Source: Candidatus Woesebacteria bacterium RIFCSPLOWO2_01_FULL_39_23 (GTDB lineage Bacteria > Patescibacteriota > Microgenomatia > UBA8517). From it: DNA of 64,000 bases. The stretch lies in assembly GCA_001793095.1 (NCBI GenBank), contig MGHG01000009.1:90391-154390 (forward strand), in the 5' to 3' direction. Both the position numbers and the translations under genes were made by a program. How positions within the stretch are numbered: position 1 is the stretch's first letter; each line of letters starts with the position of its first letter. This document shows positions 4,947 to 61,685 of this stretch, one piece after another. The notes under the pieces are model-generated. The model searched no databases, had not been told where the DNA came from, and saw nothing but the letters and a program-made list of their open reading frames with translations.

Positions 4947-6305
4947 ATGGAAAATATTCTTAATTTTAATCCCAGGCCATCTACAATCCTACATATTGAT
5001 CTTAATTCCTGCTTTGCGACTATCGAACAGCAGGCAAACCCACATCTCCGGGGGAAACCCGTTGCTGTTGCGGCTTACACGAGCTCTAATGGCTGTATCC
5101 TTGCTCCCTCTATTGAGGCTAAGAAATATGGTGTAAAAACCGGAATGAGAGTAAAGGACGGGATGCTTTTGTGTCCTAATTTAATAATTTTACCTTCCGA
5201 TCCCTGGAAATACCGCAACGTCCATCTTAGCCTAAGGCAATTGCTTTCAAACTACACACCTGACGTTATGCCTAAGAGCATAGATGAGTTTGTATTAGAC
5301 TTTCAGAGAGTTGGAGGGATCAGAGGATCGGAAAACTCGGAGTATTCAGATGGTCAGATAGCCAGAGAGTCAGAATTCCGGAAATCTGGTGATCCGATGC
5401 TCGGGTCCCCTGAGTTTTCTGAGGGCTCCGGTTCTCCGTTATGTCGAGTTGCTCAAGAGATCAAGCAGCGTATCAAGCAAGAGGTTGGAGAGTGGCTGAC
5501 TGTTTCGATTGGAATTGCCCCGAATAGGTTTTTGGCAAAACTTGCGTCGGGTTTGCATAAACCGGACGGCCTCGATGAAATTAATAAAGGTAATTTCTTG
5601 GGAGTTTATTCTCAACTTGAACTTACTGATTTGCCTTATATTAAAATGCGTAACGCCATTAGGCTTAATCGTATGGAAATTTTTAGTGTTGTCGATTTTT
5701 ATCATGCACCGCTTTGGAAATTGAAAGCAGCTTTTGAGTCAGTTAATGGTTATTATTGGTATTTGAGGTTAAGGGGGCAGGAAATAGATGATGTCGCTTT
5801 CGGAAGACGAAGCTACGGCAATTCGTATGCGCTCCCCCGCCCTCTAGCCACACCGGAAGACTTGTCGCCTATTTTGACTAAGTTGGTAACTAAGACAGGT
5901 GCCCGTCTTAGGCATGCGGGGTATGCTGCCCGCGGAGTGCACGTTGCCGTAGGCTATAGGGACGGTAGTTTTTGGCATAAGGGTGTGACTTTCAGTAAAA
6001 ACTTATTTGAGTCACGAGAGATTTATAAGTGTTCACTTAGAATTCTTTGTCAGTCTCCGTATCGTAGGCCGGTCAGAGATTTGGCTATTTCGGTCTTCGA
6101 TTTGCGAAGAAAGGAGAGCCTTCAGCTTGAACTTTTTGAGGATGCTGTTGCTAAGGAGAATTTAGCTAAAGCGGTTGATCGGGTGAACGAGCGTTGGGGT
6201 GATTTTGTGGTTACACCGGCGCGCATGGTTAGTGCTTCGAGCGAAGTTCCAGACAGAATCGCGTTCGGCGGGATTAAGGAGCTAGAAGAATTTGCACTAA
6301 GCTAA
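4947..6305 (+). CDS. dinB: DNA polymerase IV (Y-family translesion polymerase) with a ~45 aa lineage-specific insertion
   Basis: Matches ILHIDLNSCFATIEQ..GKPVAV, SIDEFVLDF and SIGIAPNRFLAKLAS. 452 aa against the usual ~360; the extra segment is GIRGSENSEYSDGQIARESEFRKSGDPMLGSPEFSEGSGSP. Confidence 0.8.
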   Translation: MENILNFNPRPSTILHIDLNSCFATIEQQANPHLRGKPVAVAAYTSSNGCILAPSIEAKKYGVKTGMRVKDGMLLCPNLIILPSDPWKYRNVHLSLRQLLSNYTPDVMPKSIDEFVLDFQRVGGIRGSENSEYSDGQIARESEFRKSGDPMLGSPEFSEGSGSPLCRVAQEIKQRIKQEVGEWLTVSIGIAPNRFLAKLASGLHKPDGLDEINKGNFLGVYSQLELTDLPYIKMRNAIRLNRMEIFSVVDFYHAPLWKLKAAFESVNGYYWYLRLRGQEIDDVAFGRRSYGNSYALPRPLATPEDLSPILTKLVTKTGARLRHAGYAARGVHVAVGYRDGSFWHKGVTFSKNLFESREIYKCSLRILCQSPYRRPVRDLAISVFDLRRKESLQLELFEDAVAKENLAKAVDRVNERWGDFVVTPARMVSASSEVPDRIAFGGIKELEEFALS

Positions 6306-6328: not shown

Positions 6329-6925
6329 TTAAAGCTGTGACAAATCAACGCTGTCTCCTAGCTTTACTCCGTATTTATCGGAAAAGCCTGTATTGACTTC
6401 AAGAACATATCTAATAGGTTGCGTAGAAGAATATGTGGGTAGTTTTGAATTTGGAGTATCCAAAGATGGTTTGGGTACATTTTTATCAATATCAGCTATG
6501 ATTCCTTTGTTATCGATCCAAATCATGTCGAGCGGAAAAAGCATTTCTTTCATCCAGAAATGAGGTATGGAGTCTGAAGCGAAAATGAAAATCATTCCTT
6601 CTTCGTCGCTGATCGGTGCATGTCCCGAAAGACCCAATGTTTGTAATGCTGGAGTATCTGCCACTTCAACGGTAAGAGTTTTATCCGCAATTTTGATCTC
6701 CTTTTTCTTAGCTTTTTCTACAACGGTTTTTGTGTCTTCGGATGATATATCTTTACCCGCCTGCAACGCTTGAGGCGTCCCGCTCGCATCGCTACGCGAA
6801 ACGTTTCGGGTGAGAGCATCTGCGGGCAGGTATGTAACATTGGGGTTGCGAAATGCGAATTTATAGAAAACAGCAATCACGATAACGAGAGCTGCAATTG
6901 CTATCGAGATTTTATGTTTAGTCAT
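6329..6925 (-). CDS. DUF192 (COG1430) family protein with N-terminal TM; carries a 33-aa in-frame inserted element
   Basis: The C-terminal HFWMKEMLFPLDMIWID..G..RYVLEV pattern is typical of DUF192. It has an N-terminal hydrophobic helix. Confidence 0.5.
   Translation of the reverse strand: MTKHKISIAIAALVIVIAVFYKFAFRNPNVTYLPADALTRNVSRSDASGTPQALQAGKDISSEDTKTVVEKAKKKEIKIADKTLTVEVADTPALQTLGLSGHAPISDEEGMIFIFASDSIPHFWMKEMLFPLDMIWIDNKGIIADIDKNVPKPSLDTPNSKLPTYSSTQPIRYVLEVNTGFSDKYGVKLGDSVDLSQL
6742..6841. mobile_element. In-frame palindromic inserted element, copy 1 (~100 bp, 33 codons) inside the DUF192 gene
   Basis: About 94% identical to 28041-28140, which lies inside an unrelated gene. It contains nested inverted repeats (CGCCTGCAACGCTTGAGGCG and the perfect palindrome CGAAACGTTTCG). 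Confidence 0.6.
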
Positions 6926-14882: not shown

Positions 14883-15770
14883 TTATGATTTGTTAATTAT
14901 CTGACTTGGCGTAATTACAGTGATATTGTTTTCTTGAACATACTTAATAATGTCCTCAAAGTCATCTTTATTAATGTCGTAACGTTCACTGTTGACATCT
15001 TTAATTGGTTCGCCGACCTTATGGAATAAAAGGATCAACCATGCTTTATCCTTTTTAGTTTGGTCGATCCATAACTTTATATCATCAACCTTTGTATTAT
15101 TTTCGATATTTTTAACCTTCATGTTATAGGGATCTAGTGTATCTACAGGATTAAAACCGGGATCGACAGTACGATATCCTTGAAACAGTTTACTGGCTTC
15201 ACTGCGGAGCGTCGGACTGTCTACCCCACACGGTGTAACAAAGACAGTGGCGGATAATTTTTGACTCCAAAGTATATTCCTGGCGGTAGTTAAATCTGTT
15301 TTTATTTGATCTTCGCTTAATGACTGCATGTTGCAATCATGTTTCAAACTATGATTTGCTATTTCCCAGCCGTCGTCTTGGATAATTCTTAACTGTGCCC
15401 AATTCATGTAATCTTTTTGGCCGATTGCAACAACCGGGACTGCAATGGTTCCCTTTAACCCCGCTTCTTTCATTAATGGATAGGCAACCATGTATTGTGA
15501 CAGCCACGCATCGTCAAACCAAAAGGTTATGTAACCATCGGTATTATTTGGTAACGCGGCATAATCTTTAAAAAAAGGATTAGCAGGATTTGTCGTACTG
15601 TAATTTTGCACACTCCTCCAAATAGGAGTATCGGATACTGAACCGAAAACATAACCAATGACAAGCCAAAGGATTATTAATGGTACTACTAACCAAAACA
15701 GGAAAGAATGTTGGCCGTCTTTCGGGCTACCGATTTTTTGAACTAAATTATTTATTTTCTTGTTTTTCAT
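14883..15770 (-). CDS. Polysaccharide deacetylase (CE4, NodB homology) with N-terminal TM
   Basis: FWFDDAW...NHSLKHD motifs. The ORF-track start at 15869 reads into the intergenic repeat element; the Met at 15770 (MKNKKINN) is preferred. Confidence 0.65.
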   Translation of the reverse strand: MKNKKINNLVQKIGSPKDGQHSFLFWLVVPLIILWLVIGYVFGSVSDTPIWRSVQNYSTTNPANPFFKDYAALPNNTDGYITFWFDDAWLSQYMVAYPLMKEAGLKGTIAVPVVAIGQKDYMNWAQLRIIQDDGWEIANHSLKHDCNMQSLSEDQIKTDLTTARNILWSQKLSATVFVTPCGVDSPTLRSEASKLFQGYRTVDPGFNPVDTLDPYNMKVKNIENNTKVDDIKLWIDQTKKDKAWLILLFHKVGEPIKDVNSERYDINKDDFEDIIKYVQENNITVITPSQIINKS

Positions 15771-15960
15771 GACATCCTCCCTGCTCTTACAAGCAGGGTT
15801 TCCTTCTCTAAAGAAGGATGATACTTCGACAAGCTCAGTATCATGCTGAGTATCGTCGAAGCATGACATATCAGGCTCGATTCTCTACGAGTCAGAGACT
15901 CTTAGAGTCGGCGACATCCCCGAGCTAACGCTCGGAGTTTTCTCGAGATCTGCTATAAAC
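15771..15960 (+). repeat. Modular structured intergenic element, copy A (full length, ~190 nt)
   Basis: It shares a 5' hairpin module, a 45-nt palindromic module, a GCTCGATTC linker and a 3' GC-hairpin + TTTTCT + GCTGTTATAA tail with copies at 17504, 38557 (minus) and 61594. The stems co-vary between copies. Confidence 0.65.
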
Positions 15961-17418
15961 TTTAAAAAAACCTTCTTCATATATTAATTTGTATCTTCCG
16001 TCTATTTCTGTAAGAATTTTCATTGCCAGTTCTTTTTTCGCTTCGTTTTTATTATCTAGCTCTATGTAGTCGAAATACTTATCCCTTATTGCTTGGATAT
16101 AGGCTGTATCATCGCTCATGCCTGAATACTCGATCCAATCCAGAGTGAAGATATTACCCGGGGGATATGTTTTATTATATAAACTTAAAACAACGTCGGC
16201 GCCGGTTTCGGCAAGTACTTTGTCTCCCATTTGCACATTCGTACTTAAGAATTTTTTGAGATTTGCTGTATTTATCCAATCGTGTTCAAGTCGGTAAAGG
16301 TTTTTAGGTAATATAGCTAAGTAAATTATTGCAAGCACTAAAACGGATAATCTTATAACAAAAGCAATAATTTTGTTTTTGCTGTCCATTAGGTAAGCGA
16401 ATGTATAGCCAATAATTGGCGACAAGAAAATAATTGTCAGATAAATATGTTTGTTCAGCGTTGGATAGCGCATGAGAGATATATGAAAAATCGGAATTAT
16501 TAGCGCGAGTGCCAATAAACCCAAGACACTTTTAACTCTCCTGATTAGAAGAAGAATATAGAGCGAAATACAAGACATTATTAAAGTTACATACGAGTTT
16601 TCCCATATCACATGAATAATCGATTGAAGAAAGTCAGAATCTCTGGTTGTTTGGGATGATGCATAAATAAGTATGTCTCTACCAAAAAATAAGGCATAAA
16701 AAAGTATTCCGAGTACAAAGGGGACTAAACCGTACAAATACCATAATTTTTTATGGAAATTATTTCTTTTTCTAATTTCTATAACTGATAAAATGAATAG
16801 AACCGGAAAAAAAAGTGCAGTAACTATCTTCATTAAAAAAGCAGCCAATAAACTGACAGCTGCCAGAAAGTAATATTTTCCATTATTAAAGTAATTAGCT
16901 TTTATAAAAGAGTTGATTGAAAAGAGCATTAAAAAATAAGTTGGTATATCGTAGGTTGCAAGTTTTGAAACAAAAATTCCGACGTAGGAAAATGCAACGA
17001 TGAATGATGCAATTAAAGCCGCAGGAAGGTTGTATTTTTTGCTATTGAAAATATTAAGCATGCGGGTAAAGCGGTAAACTTCTTCTACAAGAAAAACTCC
17101 AAAGAACACGTTCAAAAGTCGGGATCCGATTATGCCTCCAACCTGATATGCCATTGCAGTTAAACTGGGATACAGATAAGGTAAACCCGCCATCCAAAGC
17201 CTGGCACCATAACTCCACCAGTCATTTGCAAATAACCCCATTTTCCCTACAACGACATATATTGCCTCGTCATTAAAAGGTGTATTGTAATTCAAATTAA
17301 TGATGCGGACTATTAAAGCTGGAAATATTATCAGGTAGAACAGAAATTTCTCCTTGTTAACTTTTCTAAAGTATTTGTTTTTAAGTAACTTTATAGTTTT
17401 TAGCATGCACGATATCAA
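15925..17418 (-). CDS. GT-C fold membrane glycosyltransferase (GT39/GT83-like; PMT/ArnT-type)
   Basis: About 12 TM helices and a first-loop DE motif (NTPFNDEAIYVV). The last ~10 codons overlap the repeat element. Confidence 0.55.
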   Translation of the reverse strand: MISCMLKTIKLLKNKYFRKVNKEKFLFYLIIFPALIVRIINLNYNTPFNDEAIYVVVGKMGLFANDWWSYGARLWMAGLPYLYPSLTAMAYQVGGIIGSRLLNVFFGVFLVEEVYRFTRMLNIFNSKKYNLPAALIASFIVAFSYVGIFVSKLATYDIPTYFLMLFSINSFIKANYFNNGKYYFLAAVSLLAAFLMKIVTALFFPVLFILSVIEIRKRNNFHKKLWYLYGLVPFVLGILFYALFFGRDILIYASSQTTRDSDFLQSIIHVIWENSYVTLIMSCISLYILLLIRRVKSVLGLLALALIIPIFHISLMRYPTLNKHIYLTIIFLSPIIGYTFAYLMDSKNKIIAFVIRLSVLVLAIIYLAILPKNLYRLEHDWINTANLKKFLSTNVQMGDKVLAETGADVVLSLYNKTYPPGNIFTLDWIEYSGMSDDTAYIQAIRDKYFDYIELDNKNEAKKELAMKILTEIDGRYKLIYEEGFFKVYSRSRENSER

Positions 17419-17503
17419 TATAGGTCATGTATTATACATTATTAGGGATAATTATAAACATAATATGGGATATTAATTAAATATGTACTAACTTAAATGT
17501 TAT

Positions 17504-17661
17504 GACATCCTCCCCGCCTTGAAAGGCGGGGTTTCCTTCAAAGGAGGATGATACTTCGACAGGCTCAGTATCATGCTGAGTATTATCGAAGCATGACATA
17601 TCAGCGTTCAATTCATCCCCGGGCTGAAAGCCCGGAGTTTTCTTGAATGCTGTTATAAGCC
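17504..17661 (+). repeat. Modular structured intergenic element, copy B
   Basis: Same module order as copy A, with compensatory stem changes (CCCCGCC-TTGAAA-GGCGGGG against CCCTGCT-CTTACA-AGCAGGG). Confidence 0.65.
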
Positions 17662-27750: not shown

Positions 27751-28941
27751 TTAAATAAATCTAACCTGCATGCCGTCAAGAGCCTGTAAGGATAGGGAGA
27801 CTTCTTGGCCGGGGAATTTTGAACCGATAGCCCAGATTTTTGCGTGCGTTCTTTCTTCTGCGAAATCAGGCCCAATTTTTTGTGCAACTTCGAATAAACT
27901 TGCCCCTTTTTTCATAACGATAGGGCTATTAAAATTCGGCTCTTCATCGAGGCGAACAAGATAAACATTGATAAAACCAAGAGTTTCCCAAATCCTTTCT
28001 TTTAAATGGTCTAGTCCGTAATCTTTTACTGCACTTATGTATGATATATCATTACCCGCCTGCAACGCTTGATGCGTCCCGCTCGCATCGCTACGCGAAA
28101 CGTCTCGGGCGAGAGCATCCGCGGGTAGGTATGTAACATTATCATTCGGCTGCATAATAATTTCTTTGTTTAACATGTCCGATTTATTTATAACAGAAAT
28201 TGAGGGGGTGTAAACGCGATTTAGTGATAATGCATCGATTAATCTTTCCAAACTTAAGTTTTCATTGATTGTTATTTCCGCGTTTTTTATTCCAAGTTCA
28301 CTAATAACACTTTTAAAAGTTTCTCTCGTGAGGTCTTGTTTAATATTGGAGTGAATGATAAGTCCTCCAGAAACTTTTTTGTCCACTATTATATTTGGTC
28401 GCACAATATCAAGTCTAATTCCGTTTCTTTCGAGTGCAGCCTTAATTCTTTCAATAGCCTCAGGTCTGTCGATGTCCGTCATTAGAATTATCAGGTCAGC
28501 CCCTCGAGCTACCGACAAAACTTCACGTCCTCTTCCCTTCCCTTCTTCTGCACCCTCAATTAGACCAGGAACATCCAAGATTTGGATTCTGGCATTTTTA
28601 TACTCCATCATGCCCGGAATAACTGATACGGTTGTAAAAGAATAGGGAGCCACTCTGCTTCTTGCGTTTGTAAGTCTATTCAGAAGAGTTGATTTTCCGG
28701 CTGACGGTGGACCTATTAATATTACAGTTGCATCTCCCTGGTGCTTTACTGCATAGCCTTGACCTCCTCCACCTCTTGATTTTGAGGATGTTTCTATTTG
28801 TTTATCTTTCAGCCTTGCAATTCTAGCCCTGAGCCTTCCGATATGGTGCTCGGTACCTTTATGGTAAGGTGTGTCGCGTATTTCTTTTTGAATGGCTGAA
28901 ATTTGTTCACCTATATGATCAATATCGGAAAAATCACTCAT
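27751..28941 (-). CDS. DRG/Obg-family GTPase with C-terminal TGS domain; carries a 33-aa in-frame inserted element
   Basis: G1 GPPSAGKSTLLN, DVPGLIEGA and a C-terminal TGS-like ...QVRFI. The N-terminal helix region resembles eukaryotic/archaeal DRG. The ORF-track start at 28998 overlaps tRNA-Arg(TCG); the Met at 28941 is preferred. Confidence 0.65.
   Translation of the reverse strand: MSDFSDIDHIGEQISAIQKEIRDTPYHKGTEHHIGRLRARIARLKDKQIETSSKSRGGGGQGYAVKHQGDATVILIGPPSAGKSTLLNRLTNARSRVAPYSFTTVSVIPGMMEYKNARIQILDVPGLIEGAEEGKGRGREVLSVARGADLIILMTDIDRPEAIERIKAALERNGIRLDIVRPNIIVDKKVSGGLIIHSNIKQDLTRETFKSVISELGIKNAEITINENLSLERLIDALSLNRVYTPSISVINKSDMLNKEIIMQPNDNVTYLPADALARDVSRSDASGTHQALQAGNDISYISAVKDYGLDHLKERIWETLGFINVYLVRLDEEPNFNSPIVMKKGASLFEVAQKIGPDFAEERTHAKIWAIGSKFPGQEVSLSLQALDGMQVRFI
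28041..28140. mobile_element. In-frame palindromic inserted element, copy 2 (~100 bp, 33 codons) inside the DRG GTPase gene
   Basis: About 94% identical to 6742-6841. It encodes DNVTYLPADALARDVSRSDASGTHQALQAGNDIS between conserved GTPase and TGS segments. Confidence 0.6.
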
Positions 28942-28983
28942 TTGAGGTATAATTATACAGGTTTTGAGCTTTGCCTGTATTAA

Positions 28984-29059
28984 GCGCCTGTAGTTCAATG
29001 GATAGAACGGCGGTCTTCGGAACCGACAATTGGAGGTTCGACTCCTCCCAGGCGCACCA
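28984..29059 (+). tRNA. tRNA-Arg (anticodon TCG) with encoded 3' CCA
   Basis: Cloverleaf built by hand: GCGCCTG acceptor, CTTCGGA anticodon loop, GGAGG-TTCGACT-CCTCC T-arm, A73 + CCA. Confidence 0.7.
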
Positions 29060-33402: not shown

Positions 33403-33446
33403 TTTGTTTCGACACGCTCCCGCGAATGTTGAGCTTGTCGAAACAG

Positions 33447-33517
33447 AGCGGGTAGGGGGAATCGAACCCCCATAAAGAGATTGGAAATCTCTTGTTCTAC
33501 CATTGAACCATACCCGC
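33447..33517 (-). tRNA. tRNA-Gly (anticodon TCC)
   Basis: Cloverleaf built by hand: GCGGGTA acceptor, AGAGA/TCTCT anticodon stem, TTTCCAA loop, U73. Confidence 0.75.
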
Positions 33518-33538
33518 ATATGTTACATATTTTCAATG

Positions 33539-33670
33539 GCCAAGCTCCGCTTACAGCGCGTAGCGATGCCAAGCTTTGCTTACAGCGCGTAGCGATGCCA
33601 AGCTTTGCTTACAGCGCGTAGCGATGCCAAGCTTTGCTTACAGCGCGTAGCGATGCCAAGCTCCGCTTAC
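33539..33670. repeat. Tandem minisatellite, 29-bp unit x ~4.5 (GCCAAGCTYYGCTTACAGCGCGTAGCGAT)
   Basis: Directly adjacent repeats with no spacers. It sits between tRNA-Gly(TCC) and a duplicated 20-nt copy of the tRNA 5' end (33668-33687). Confidence 0.8.
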
Positions 33671-33816
33671 CATTGAACCATACCCGCGCGTCGTAACACG
33701 ACGCACTAATCGTATCACAATGCCTTTGCGTAGGATACTAACGCTAGTCGGTTACTCCTTTCAATCCTTCTGCTTTGCTCAGGATTGGTTTCTAACAATC
33801 AAATAATATGTTTTTG

Positions 33817-38381: not shown

Positions 38382-38556
38382 AATGCTATATTGCTACACC
38401 TATAGAAGAAGTTCAAGTAGTTTAATTATTGACTCGGTAGGTTAAGTAAACGGTGATGAAAAGGTGCATTATTAAAAAAATTAGAGCGGGAGATCTTCTG
38501 ACAAGCTCCTTCTTTACTACTCTTTTATCAAAATAATCCATTAACTTTAGTGCTGA

Positions 38557-38667
38557 GGTTATAACAGCGTTCAAGAAAACTCCGCTCTTCAGGGCGGAGA
38601 TGAATTGAACTCTGATATATCGTCCTCCTTAGAGAAACCCCGCCCTTGAGGGCGGGGAGGACGTCAT
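38557..38667 (-). repeat. Modular structured intergenic element, copy D (minus orientation, lacks the central palindromic module)
   Basis: The reverse complement reads GACGTCCTCCCCGCCCTCAAGGGCGGGGTTTCTCTAAGGAGGACG ATATATCAG AGTTCAATTCATCTCCGCCCTGAAGAGCGGAGTTTCTTGAACGCTGTTATAACC. This aligns module-by-module with copy B. Confidence 0.6.
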
Positions 38668-61550: not shown

Positions 61551-61593
61551 TTCTTAATAATAATAGTTTAATAGACTATTGACAAGAAGATAT

Positions 61594-61685
61594 GACATAC
61601 TCGCCTCGCCGTGGCTTGAGCGAAGCGGGTCAGGGCTCGATTCATCCCCGAGCGTAAGCTCGGGGTTTTCTCGAAACTGCTATAC
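61594..61685 (+). repeat. Modular structured intergenic element, copy C (short form)
   Basis: Shares TATGACAT 5' context, a 5' hairpin (CGCCTCGCC...GCGAAGCGG), the GCTCGATTCATCC linker and the CCCGAGC-GTAA-GCTCGGG TTTTCTCGAAA CTGCTATAC tail. It ends 8 nt before the ATG of the next gene. Confidence 0.6.

What the first reader, a model, noticed from the sequence alone, without database searches (positions are those of the whole stretch)
6742..6841. A ~100-bp palindromic element inserted in frame (33 codons) in two unrelated conserved genes
The same ~100-nt sequence occurs inside the DUF192 gene (6742-6841) and inside the DRG/TGS GTPase gene (28041-28140) with ~94% nucleotide identity. Its shared core reads ATGATATATC-TTACCCGCCTGCAACGCTTGAGGCGTCCCGCTCGCATCGCTACGCGAAACGTTTCGGGTGAGAGCATCTGCGGGCAGGTATGTAACATT. 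Both copies are exactly 33 codons and keep the host frame. Each adds a NVTYLPADAL.R.VSRSDASGT.QALQAG.DIS peptide between otherwise conserved segments. The element is strongly self-complementary: it contains CGCCTGCAACGCTTGAGGCG, the perfect palindrome CGAAACGTTTCG and outer CCCGCCTGC/GCGGGCAGG arms. This is the pattern described for Rickettsia palindromic elements (selfish MITE-like sequences that insert in frame into ORFs) and has not, to my knowledge, been described in this kind of genome. The mobilisation mechanism and any effect on protein function are unknown.
Basis: seen in the sequence. Interest (0 to 1): 0.8.

Follow-up and report, generated by a model that had tools for sequence, protein, structure and literature searches.

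The report
In-frame hairpin repeat in CPR genes
Two unrelated genes of this Woesebacteria (CPR) genome each carry a 100-bp copy of a small GC-rich hairpin repeat that is translated as part of the protein, and the repeat belongs to an apparently undescribed, widespread family resembling the palindromic elements of Rickettsia.

Summary
Windows 6742-6841 and 28041-28140 are 94/100 identical with unrelated flanks. Each lies in frame in a minus-strand gene (DUF192; DRG/Rbg-type GTPase), and 150 and 119 homologues respectively lack the segment.

The 100-mer is a composite, not the basic unit. It has AT-rich arms, a 39-nt hairpin core (CCTGCCCGCAGATGCTACGCATCAAGCGTTGCAGGCGGG) and a related 36-nt hairpin nested in the core's apical loop.

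The core occurs in at least 41 distinct contexts in Microgenomates/Woesebacteria contigs from many sites. About 20 unrelated host protein families carry it in frame (EF-Ts, YqeY, TsaD, MnmA, Fmt, RsmH, RuvX, RecR, DinB and others), and it also lies after stop codons.

Filled-versus-empty orthologue pairs show a precise 39-nt insertion with no target duplication. Element lengths are all multiples of three. Coding copies are almost all sense, while intergenic copies run both ways, which points to selection.

The element stays 96-98% identical where flanks are about 65% identical, and it recurs at one EF-Ts codon boundary.

Best reading: a REP/RPE-like non-autonomous mobile hairpin. It is not a member of the tagged REP or RPE families. 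The mobilising enzyme is unknown.

The parts
6742..6841 (-). Copy A of the composite element (100 nt). It is translated on the minus strand as aa 28-60 of the DUF192 protein.
6815..6830 (-). Copy A, 5' half of the 39-nt core (sense strand CCTGCCCGCAGATGCT).
6779..6814 (-). Copy A, nested 36-nt hairpin (sense CTCACCCGAAACGTTTCGCGTAGCGATGCGAGCGGG). It sits in the apical loop of the core and is itself related to the core family.
   Evidence: comparison with 39-nt copies lacking it
6755..6778 (-). Copy A, 3' half of the core (sense ACGCCTCAAGCGTTGCAGGCGGGT).
6831..6841 (-). Copy A, AT-rich arm AATGTTACATA on the sense-strand 5' side. It is shared with copy B, and similar AAATGTTA(CATA) modules sit next to cores in L016 and L056.
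6742..6754 (-). Copy A, AT-rich arm AAAGATATATCAT on the sense-strand 3' side. It is shared with copy B. AAGATAT-like modules also flank cores in L007 and L033.
28041..28140 (-). Copy B of the composite element (100 nt). It is translated as aa 287-319 of the DRG-type GTPase, between the G4 motif (NKSD) and the G5 motif (ISA).
28078..28113 (-). Copy B, nested 36-nt hairpin.
28054..28077 (-). Copy B, 3' half of the core.
28114..28129 (-). Copy B, 5' half of the core (sense CCTACCCGCGGATGCT).
6329..6925 (-). Host gene 1: DUF192 protein with an N-terminal hydrophobic anchor. The insert lies in the linker before the domain.
27751..28998 (-). Host gene 2: DRG/Rbg-type GTPase. The likely true start is the ATG at 28941. 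The protein is 100% identical over 301 aa to a partial protein of Candidatus Woesebacteria RIFCSPHIGHO2_12_FULL.
6267..6272 (+). Empty site in the window's DinB-like gene: GGC|GGG, with the junction at 6269|6270. Orthologues L057 and L022 carry the 39-nt element exactly here (AFG|QPADATHQALQAG|GVKELEEF).

Best explanation
The two 100-bp repeats are copies of a non-autonomous, DNA-level mobile hairpin element of the REP/RPE kind that lives in Microgenomates/Woesebacteria (CPR) genomes.

The basic unit is a GC-rich imperfect hairpin of 36-39 nt: CCTGCCCGC-(A)GATGC-TAC-GCATC(AA)-GCG-TTGCAGGCGGG. It is inserted precisely and without target-site duplication, into intergenic DNA and into genes.

CPR genomes are almost wholly coding. 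A small element can therefore persist mainly if it does not break genes. The family has lengths of 33, 36 and 39 nt (and sums of these), and the canonical 39-mer has no stop codon in any of its three sense frames. Selection then keeps the copies that sit in tolerant loops or linkers and that encode the bland peptide LPADATHQALQAG.

In the lineage of this window a related 36-nt hairpin inserted into the single-stranded apical loop of a core. This composite then spread to at least three genes: YqeY, DRG and DUF192. The last two copies also carry AT-rich arms.

Mobilisation is most likely by a trans-acting enzyme that recognises the folded single-stranded hairpin, as the HUH/Y1 transposases of the IS200/IS605-RAYT type do.

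Shown: repetition, precise insertion polymorphism, absence of a target duplication, nesting, in-frame translation potential, loop location, orientation and frame statistics.
Inferred: the selfish nature, the selection filter, and above all the enzyme.
For: - Same sequence in unrelated hosts. There are 41 unique contexts. Host families confirmed by Pfam are DUF192, DRG, RsmH, TsaD, MnmA, RuvX, AsnB, Mur_ligase_C, Wzy_C, LytR_C, HD and VWA and YqeY. EF-Ts was identified by homology search. Fmt, DinB, RecR and a glycosyltransferase were identified by eye from the sequence.
- Precise presence/absence. EF-Ts is empty in L060 and L061 (GAC|GAA, GAT|GAG) and filled in L017 and L010, with exactly 39 nt added and no duplication. 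DinB is empty in the window at 6269|6270 and filled in L057.
- Sporadic distribution. 119 of the 120 nearest EF-Ts homologues lack the insert. Filled L017 is 89% identical in amino acids to an empty homologue but only 80% to filled L010.
- DNA-level identity. Elements are 96-98% identical where flanks are 65-68% identical, and this includes 18 nt that were not part of the search pattern. 24 of 37 distinct 39-nt contexts carry the identical 39-mer.
- All three sense frames are used, and one antisense coding copy exists. Intergenic copies occur in both orientations, some 5-25 nt after a stop codon and followed by a T-run. The near-exclusive sense orientation inside ORFs is therefore a selection filter.
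- Three independent nested insertions all sit in the apical loop.
- The hairpin is significant as single-stranded DNA: z = -2.8 to -4.2.
- The insert is in a loop. AlphaFold2 pLDDT is below 50 for residues 268-296, between confident strands. The alignment to Rbg1/Rbg2 skips it. The same DRG loop independently carries a 36-nt family member in another frame in P0132/L062, and a different palindrome in P0129/L063.
- Side effects typical of a repeat: one chimeric contig (P0002, YqeY N-terminus joined to DRG C-terminus across the element) and one contig that ends inside the element (P0124).
Against: - No transposase or other mobilising gene was identified. Whole genomes could not be inspected.
- The collection scans required an exact 20- or 21-mer. 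The extreme conservation is therefore partly an ascertainment effect.
- Near-identity across lineages whose flanks have diverged by about 35%, together with reuse of the same codon boundary in EF-Ts and YqeY, goes beyond what a decaying selfish repeat such as the RPEs shows. It could instead indicate a nucleotide-level function.
- The ends are variable and the centre is conserved, which is the reverse of a classical MITE.
- No transcript or protein data show that the insert is actually translated.
Confidence: 0.72

Rival explanations
1. The core is a functional cis-element kept by selection rather than selfish DNA. It could be a binding or recognition site for a conserved protein (nucleoid, repair, uptake or restriction-related), or an RNA hairpin that modulates mRNA stability, termination or translation pausing at domain boundaries. 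Mobility would only be the way it is distributed.
For: - 24 of 37 contexts carry an identical 39-mer, and elements are 96-98% identical where flanks are about 65% identical.
- The same codon boundary is used in EF-Ts and YqeY in divergent lineages.
- Intergenic copies sit directly after stop codons and are followed by T-runs, like terminators or REP-type mRNA stabilisers.
- Insert positions are often at domain linkers.
Against: - 119 of 120 close EF-Ts homologues, and all DRG and DUF192 homologues examined, do without the element. It is therefore dispensable at every site examined.
- It occurs in about 20 unrelated genes with no common function.
- Both orientations and all frames occur.
- The exact-match search inflates the apparent conservation. 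Degenerate 36-nt variants exist.
- There is no Rfam match.
Confidence: 0.15
2. The segment is an ancestral or convergently evolved protein motif (a linker or peptide module) and not inserted DNA.
For: The same frame (LPADATHQALQAG) is used in about 16 of about 23 independent coding events.
Against: - Orthologues lack it.
- Identity is at the nucleotide level, synonymous positions included, in unrelated genes.
- The same DNA is read in other frames (PCPQMLRIKRCRRV, PARRCYASSVAGGS), read antisense, and found in intergenic DNA.
Confidence: 0.02
3. It is an assembly or sequencing artefact, or contaminating synthetic sequence that was incorporated into MAG contigs.
For: The repeat does cause assembly errors: the chimeric contig P0002 and the contig break in P0124.
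Against: - The element is found in independent projects and with different assemblers: JGI Ga-series metagenome contigs, ENA Hainich groundwater contigs, SPRUCE-labelled and TPA MAGs, and NCBI RIFCS genomes.
- It is always flanked on both sides by the two halves of the same gene, and always a multiple of 3 in length.
- Lineage-specific variants and nested forms exist.
Confidence: 0.02
4. The hairpin is removed after transcription (an intron-like or processed element), so the proteins are not altered.
For: A stable hairpin with conserved sequence could in principle be a processing signal. Patescibacteria are known for unusual introns (paper listed; not read).
Against: - All lengths are multiples of three (33, 36, 39, 72, 75, 99-100 nt), and coding copies have no stops in the frame used. 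Neither would be required if the segment were spliced out.
- At 36-39 nt it is far too small for a self-splicing intron.
- No Rfam family matches.
Confidence: 0.04

Closest known systems
Rickettsia palindromic elements (RPE-1 to RPE-10; Ogata et al. 2000/2002, as summarised in PMC10969869 and PMC3733652)
   Same: - Small palindromic repeats inserted in frame into many unrelated, apparently functional genes of a small, reduced genome.
- They encode a conserved peptide located in tolerant parts of the protein.
- They also occur in non-coding DNA.
- The mobilising enzyme is unknown.
   Different: - Different phylum (CPR/Microgenomates rather than Alphaproteobacteria), and no sequence relationship was shown.
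- The unit is much smaller: 36-39 nt against about 100-150 bp for RPE-1.
- Copies are near-identical across deeply divergent lineages, whereas RPE copies are decayed (the RPE decay is from my own knowledge, not tested here).
- The same codon boundary is reused.
- Insertions nest into the hairpin loop.
REP / BIME elements, including intragenic GTAG- and CGTC-tagged REPs (PMC3733652; RAYT association, PMC2817692)
   Same: - GC-rich imperfect palindrome in or just beyond the 20-40 nt range given for REPs.
- Frequent position just downstream of ORFs.
- Mosaic association with other short modules, as in BIMEs.
- Occasional location inside genes, where they add 20-30 amino acids. R. conorii RPE-4 and RPE-6 are CGTC REPs according to PMC3733652.
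- Hypothesised mobilisation as single-stranded hairpins by IS200/IS605-like tyrosine transposases.
   Different: - There is no GTAG or CGTC tag at either end; GTAG occurs only in the apical loop of the reverse strand.
- In the sample recovered here, the majority of copies are intragenic.
- No RAYT has been identified.
- The family is shared by many divergent lineages instead of being species-specific.
IS200/IS605-derived palindrome-associated elements and classical MITEs (Correia/NEMIS, ERIC, RUP and others)
   Same: - Non-autonomous, hairpin-forming and multicopy.
- IS200/IS605-type insertion leaves no target duplication and acts on single-stranded DNA (established knowledge of that family).
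   Different: - A classical MITE has conserved terminal inverted repeats, a variable centre and target-site duplications. Here the centre is conserved, the flanking arms vary, and no duplication is seen at the three empty/filled pairs.
- IS200/IS605 derivatives carry two different subterminal hairpins and insert next to a fixed tetra- or pentanucleotide. Here there is a single hairpin and only a weak left-flank preference: RGA(C/T), or a pyrimidine-rich TC.

Membership tests
Rickettsia palindromic elements (RPE) | Palindromic repeat present in many copies per genome | tested here: inconclusive
   Repetition and palindromy are shown: 2 copies in 64 kb, 4 copies in the 14-kb locus L016, 2 in L032, and significant hairpins. 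A whole-genome copy number could not be obtained.
Rickettsia palindromic elements (RPE) | Inserted in frame in unrelated protein-coding genes, and absent from orthologues | tested here: met
   About 20 host families. Empty orthologues are documented.
Rickettsia palindromic elements (RPE) | Sequence similarity to one of the RPE consensus families, and occurrence in Rickettsia/Rickettsiales | not tested
   No RPE consensus sequences were available in the tools. The host is Woesebacteria/Microgenomates and the unit length is 36-39 nt against about 100-150 bp. Membership is implausible, but sequence similarity was not computed.
REP (GTAG/CGTC-tagged superfamilies, PMC3733652) | Imperfect palindrome of 20-40 bp | tested here: met
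   The unit is 36-39 nt. Stems are of about 5+3+5 bp with bulges. Single-stranded DNA folding gives z = -2.8 to -4.2.
REP (GTAG/CGTC-tagged superfamilies, PMC3733652) | Unpaired GTAG or CGTC motif at one end of the stem-loop | tested here: not met
   The ends are CCTGCCC... and ...GGCGGG(T) in all 41 contexts. GTAG occurs only inside the apical loop on the reverse strand.
REP (GTAG/CGTC-tagged superfamilies, PMC3733652) | Predominantly extragenic, downstream of ORFs | tested here: not met
   At least 25 of the 41 unique contexts are inside ORFs. Seven are intergenic, several of them directly after stop codons.
REP (GTAG/CGTC-tagged superfamilies, PMC3733652) | Cognate RAYT (IS200/IS605-like tyrosine transposase) gene flanked by the repeats | not testable with these tools
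   Only loci of 20 kb or less and the 64-kb window were accessible. No Y1_Tnp annotation appeared among the Pfam-annotated neighbours in L001, L061 and L063.
Classical MITE | Conserved terminal inverted repeats and a target-site duplication | tested here: not met
   There is no duplication at the EF-Ts and DinB empty/filled pairs. The termini (AT-rich arms) vary between subfamilies while the centre is invariant. The 100-mer has only a 7/10 imperfect inverted repeat (ATGWTAYATM), read directly from the sequence.
Any Rfam RNA family | Covariance-model match | tested here: not met
   Only tRNAs pass the gathering threshold in the window. No relevant hit at E<=10 on 6700-6880.

The most novel reading that the evidence does not exclude
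The 39-mer is not merely a tolerated parasite. It would be the recognition module of a site-specific, sequence-guided insertion system that is still active and moves horizontally among CPR lineages. Such a system would repeatedly target defined codon boundaries of essential genes (EF-Ts GD|EKK, YqeY D|MGK) and single-stranded hairpin loops. This would explain both its perfect conservation across lineages whose flanks differ by about 35% and its same-site recurrence.
Probability: 0.2. Interest if true: 0.85.

Novelty: new variant of a known kind. Interest (0 to 1): 0.66.

Why it matters
In-frame palindromic repeats have been a curiosity mainly of Rickettsia, plus a few REP-rich bacteria. Finding an abundant, highly conserved family in the Candidate Phyla Radiation matters for four reasons.

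1. It shows that the same solution arose independently in another lineage of tiny, gene-dense genomes: a selfish hairpin whose length is a multiple of three and whose sense frames are open.

2. The clean empty/filled pairs, the same-site recurrences and the loop-nested copies give an unusually good data set for working out how REP-like hairpins actually move. That question is still open.

3. The element adds 12-33 residues to core translation and tRNA-modification proteins. This matters for annotation, structure prediction and phylogenomic alignments of CPR.

4. It breaks and chimerises assemblies (P0002, P0124), which is relevant to MAG quality.

Tried and rejected
A concatenated query of four frames worked but found only 3 proteins, because the word index is limited to 100 candidates.
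- The genome-contig scan with a 20-mer gave 7 loci, of which 3 (L002, L005, L006) are not element copies. L002 and L006 match inside a conserved coding sequence that reads ...ITRLQRLKTG... and looks like a polyprenyl-synthase gene by eye. I excluded such hits from the metagenome scan by adding KG to the pattern.
- Viral contigs and GenBank phages gave no match, so there is no evidence for a phage vector.
- Rfam gave nothing. This rejects the idea that the 39-mer is a fragment of a conserved structural RNA used as filler DNA.
- I looked for stand-alone copies of the three nested pieces in the roughly 470 kb of sequence then held. None was found.
- Covariation analysis of the hairpin was not informative. 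The 3' half was fixed by the search pattern and the 5' half has only 11 variable positions, mostly singletons.
- I considered an orientation bias caused by the insertion mechanism (transcription- or replication-coupled). I rejected it as the main cause, because intergenic copies occur in both orientations and one antisense coding copy exists.
- A sortase or sorting-signal reading of LPADA was rejected, because the hosts include cytoplasmic housekeeping proteins.
- A fuzzy-regex scan timed out and was replaced by blastn.

Full report
**1.

Windows 6742-6841 and 28041-28140 align without gaps at 94/100 identity, and the similarity stops abruptly at both ends. A 50-nt core pattern with up to three mismatches occurs only at these two places, against 0 expected in 100 dinucleotide shuffles. 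A word-7 blastn finds no third copy in the window. The repeat is 54-55% G+C in a 36.6% G+C window.

Both copies lie in minus-strand ORFs, in the same orientation and frame.
- ORF 6329-6925 is a 198-aa DUF192 protein. Its Pfam domain covers residues 85-194 and the insert covers residues 28-60, between the N-terminal hydrophobic segment and the domain.
- ORF 27751-28998 is a DRG-type GTPase with MMR_HSR1, MMR_HSR1_Xtn and TGS domains. The insert covers residues 287-319.

The 100-mer folds at -38 kcal/mol as RNA, with z = -2.5 and -3.1.

**2. The segment is an insertion, not part of the host families**

DRG:
- Among the 120 best homologues (at most 67% identical to the window protein), only P0124 has the motif. 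P0124 is a 100%-identical partial protein from a Candidatus Woesebacteria MAG.
- The other 119 have a short, hypervariable stretch between the G4 motif NKxD and the G5 motif SA.
- Yeast Rbg1 and Rbg2 structures align on both sides and skip the insert.
- An AlphaFold2 model (mean pLDDT 82) gives pLDDT below 50 for residues 262-266 and 268-296, between confident strands. Residues 268-300 of that model are the insert.

DUF192:
- None of the 150 best representatives carries the motif. Their median length is 169 aa against 198 aa for the window protein.
- A 97%-identical relative (P0001) has the same insert.

**3. The 100-mer is a composite of a much more widespread unit**

A six-frame peptide query found the same peptide in a YqeY protein of Woesebacteria RIFCSPLOWO2_01_FULL_39_23 (P0003). 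It also found a 146-aa protein from an 895-bp ENA contig (P0002) that is YqeY at its N-terminus and the window's DRG at its C-terminus, that is, an assembly chimera across the repeat. The YqeY locus (L001) shares only the central 78 nt of the 100-mer.

Exact-pattern scans were then run.
- GTDB genomes: 4 real copies and 3 matches that are not element copies, out of 7 loci.
- JGI/ENA metagenomes: 51 loci.
- These copies show that the basic unit is 39 nt, CCTGCCCGCAGATGCTACGCATCAAGCGTTGCAGGCGGG, with boundaries ambiguous by one base.

The window copies and the YqeY copy carry an extra 36 nt (CTCGCCCGAGACGTTTCGCGTAGCGATGCGAGCGGG) inserted in the apical loop (GATGCT|...|ACGCATC). By eye, this piece has the same architecture as the core and shares the GCTACGC loop region when read on the opposite strand.

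Two other nested inserts, of 33 nt in an EF-Ts gene (L004) and 36 nt in L016, sit in the same loop.

The window copies also share AT-rich arms: AATGTTACATA and AAWGATATATCAT. Similar AT-rich modules accompany cores elsewhere (TCAAATC repeats, AAATGTTA, AAGATAT), so the elements are mosaics.

36-nt core variants also exist.

**4. Contexts**

Fifty-eight hits collapse to 41 unique contexts.

Coding hosts:
- Confirmed by Pfam: RsmH, TsaD, MnmA, RuvX, asparagine synthase, Mur-ligase C domain, Wzy_C, LytR_C, HD and VWA; YqeY; DRG and DUF192.
- Identified by homology search: EF-Ts.
- Recognised by eye from the sequence: Fmt, DinB, RecR, a glycosyltransferase and a membrane protein.

Frames and orientation, counting independent events:
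- About 16 use the frame giving LPADATHQALQAG.
- Four use PAR(R)CYASSVAGG-type.
- Two use PCPQMLRIKRCRRV.
- One 36-nt variant is read antisense as SPPATLYVAMRAG.
- The canonical 39-mer has no stop in any sense frame, but has stops in two of the three antisense frames.
- Seven intergenic copies are split 4:3 in orientation relative to the neighbouring genes. Several lie 5-25 nt after a stop codon and are followed by a T-run.

I conclude that insertion itself is not orientation-restricted and that the sense and frame bias inside ORFs is a survival filter.

All element lengths are multiples of three: 33, 36, 39, 72 and 75 nt, and 99 nt plus one shared base.

**5. Precise insertion polymorphism**

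- EF-Ts genes L060 and L061 read ...GGTGAC|GAAAAA... and ...GGCGAT|GAGAAA.... L017 and L010 carry exactly 39 extra nt at that junction, with no duplication.
- The window's own DinB-like gene is an empty site (GGC|GGG at 6269|6270) for the insertion seen in L057 and L022.
- 119 of the 120 nearest EF-Ts homologues of L017 are empty.
- Filled L017 is 89% identical to an empty homologue but 80% identical to filled L010. Other filled EF-Ts genes are only 57-65% identical to these two.

Hence either the same codon boundary was hit several times or the element was lost precisely many times.

**6. Conservation**

Between orthologous filled genes the 90-nt flanks are 65-68% identical. The element is 96-98% identical, and this includes the 18 nt that were not in the search pattern. 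24 of 37 distinct 39-nt contexts carry the identical 39-mer. The exact-match scans bias this upward. Even so, an nhmmer search of all fetched DNA (455 kb) found only a handful of more diverged copies.

**7. What it is not**

- There is no Rfam family match, and no match in viral contigs or phage genomes.
- There is no GTAG or CGTC end tag of the REP superfamilies described in PMC3733652.
- There are no conserved terminal inverted repeats and no target duplication as in MITEs.
- Full-text searches combining CPR/Patescibacteria terms with palindromic element, MITE, REP, or the peptide itself found nothing.
- In-frame RPEs and intragenic REPs are documented for Rickettsia, Opitutus, Thauera and others.

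**8. Interpretation**

The best-supported reading is a non-autonomous mobile hairpin of the REP/RPE kind, adapted to an almost fully coding genome. The window copies represent a lineage-specific composite that spread after a nesting event.

An enzyme acting on single-stranded hairpins (HUH/Y1, RAYT-like) is my preferred mechanism. The reasons are the single imperfect hairpin, the absence of a target duplication and the three insertions into a hairpin loop. This step is inference only, and no such gene was seen.

The main rival is a nucleotide-level function of the hairpin, suggested by its extreme conservation and site reuse.

**9. Verdict**

The element is a new variant of a known kind, not a member of the RPE or tagged-REP families.

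Noticed in passing
window 33518-33690: A 29-nt tandem repeat (GCCAAGCTTTGCTTACAGCGCGTAGCGAT, about 5 copies, 33539-33683) lies between tRNA-Gly(tcc) (33446-33517, minus strand) and a second copy of that tRNA's 5' part (CTTACCATTGAACCATACCCGC at 33497-33518 and 33668-33689). The unit shares the 13-mer CGCGTAGCGATGC with the nested piece of the element. Related GCCAAGCT... sequences occur in Woesebacteria locus L063 (982-1021, 7896-7913).
   Followed up: partly
window 15746-15961, 17479-17658, 38556-38667 (inverted), 61592-61674: A second repeat family of about 110-220 nt has several GC-rich hairpins that show compensatory changes between copies (CCCCGAGC/GCTCGGGG, CCCCGGGC/GCCCGGAG, CTCCGCCC/GAGCGGAG) and ends in GGAGTTTTCTYGA. 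It looks like a structured small RNA or a terminator-bearing intergenic element. No Rfam family matches.
   Followed up: partly
window 5391-5439 (inside the DinB-like ORF 4947-6305): A GC-rich palindromic stretch (CCCCTGAGTTTTCTGAGGGC) encodes ...SGDPMLGSPEFSEGSGSP.... The window protein is about 17 aa longer here than its orthologue in L057. This may be an in-frame palindromic insert of a different family.
   Followed up: no
L063 2302-2374 (DRG orthologue P0129) and L062 (DRG orthologue P0132): The same G4-G5 loop of the DRG GTPase carries other in-frame palindromes in other Woesebacteria. One is a 73-nt hairpin of a different family (-32.7 kcal/mol; peptide KLIHPAFPTGRPPGVFEAATV). The other is a 36-nt member of the present family in another frame (SPARYATHSVAGGP). 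This loop is a hot spot for such inserts.
   Followed up: yes
L016 12355-12617 and 5568-5603: One 14-kb contig holds four family members. Three are in a row inside an O-antigen-ligase-like (Wzy_C) gene: a nested composite, a 36-nt variant and a canonical 39-mer, each in a different frame. The fourth is an antisense copy in another membrane protein.
   Followed up: partly
P0002 (ENA 895-bp contig) and P0124 (NCBI partial protein): The repeat causes assembly errors. One contig fuses the YqeY N-terminus to the DRG C-terminus across the element. The NCBI Woesebacteria contig carrying the same DRG gene ends inside the element.
   Followed up: yes
L003 and L004 (GTDB genome contigs): Two contigs labelled 'uncultured Gammaproteobacteria' MAGs (38-39% GC) carry this CPR element. 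One of them has a CPR-type short EF-Ts. L003's flanks resemble those of Patescibacteria locus L007. These are probably mis-binned or mislabelled CPR contigs.
   Followed up: no
window 1-64000: Thirteen tRNA genes lie in 64 kb, mostly on the minus strand. Cumulative GC skew rises to about 50-52 kb and then falls, which suggests a replication origin or terminus near there.
   Followed up: no
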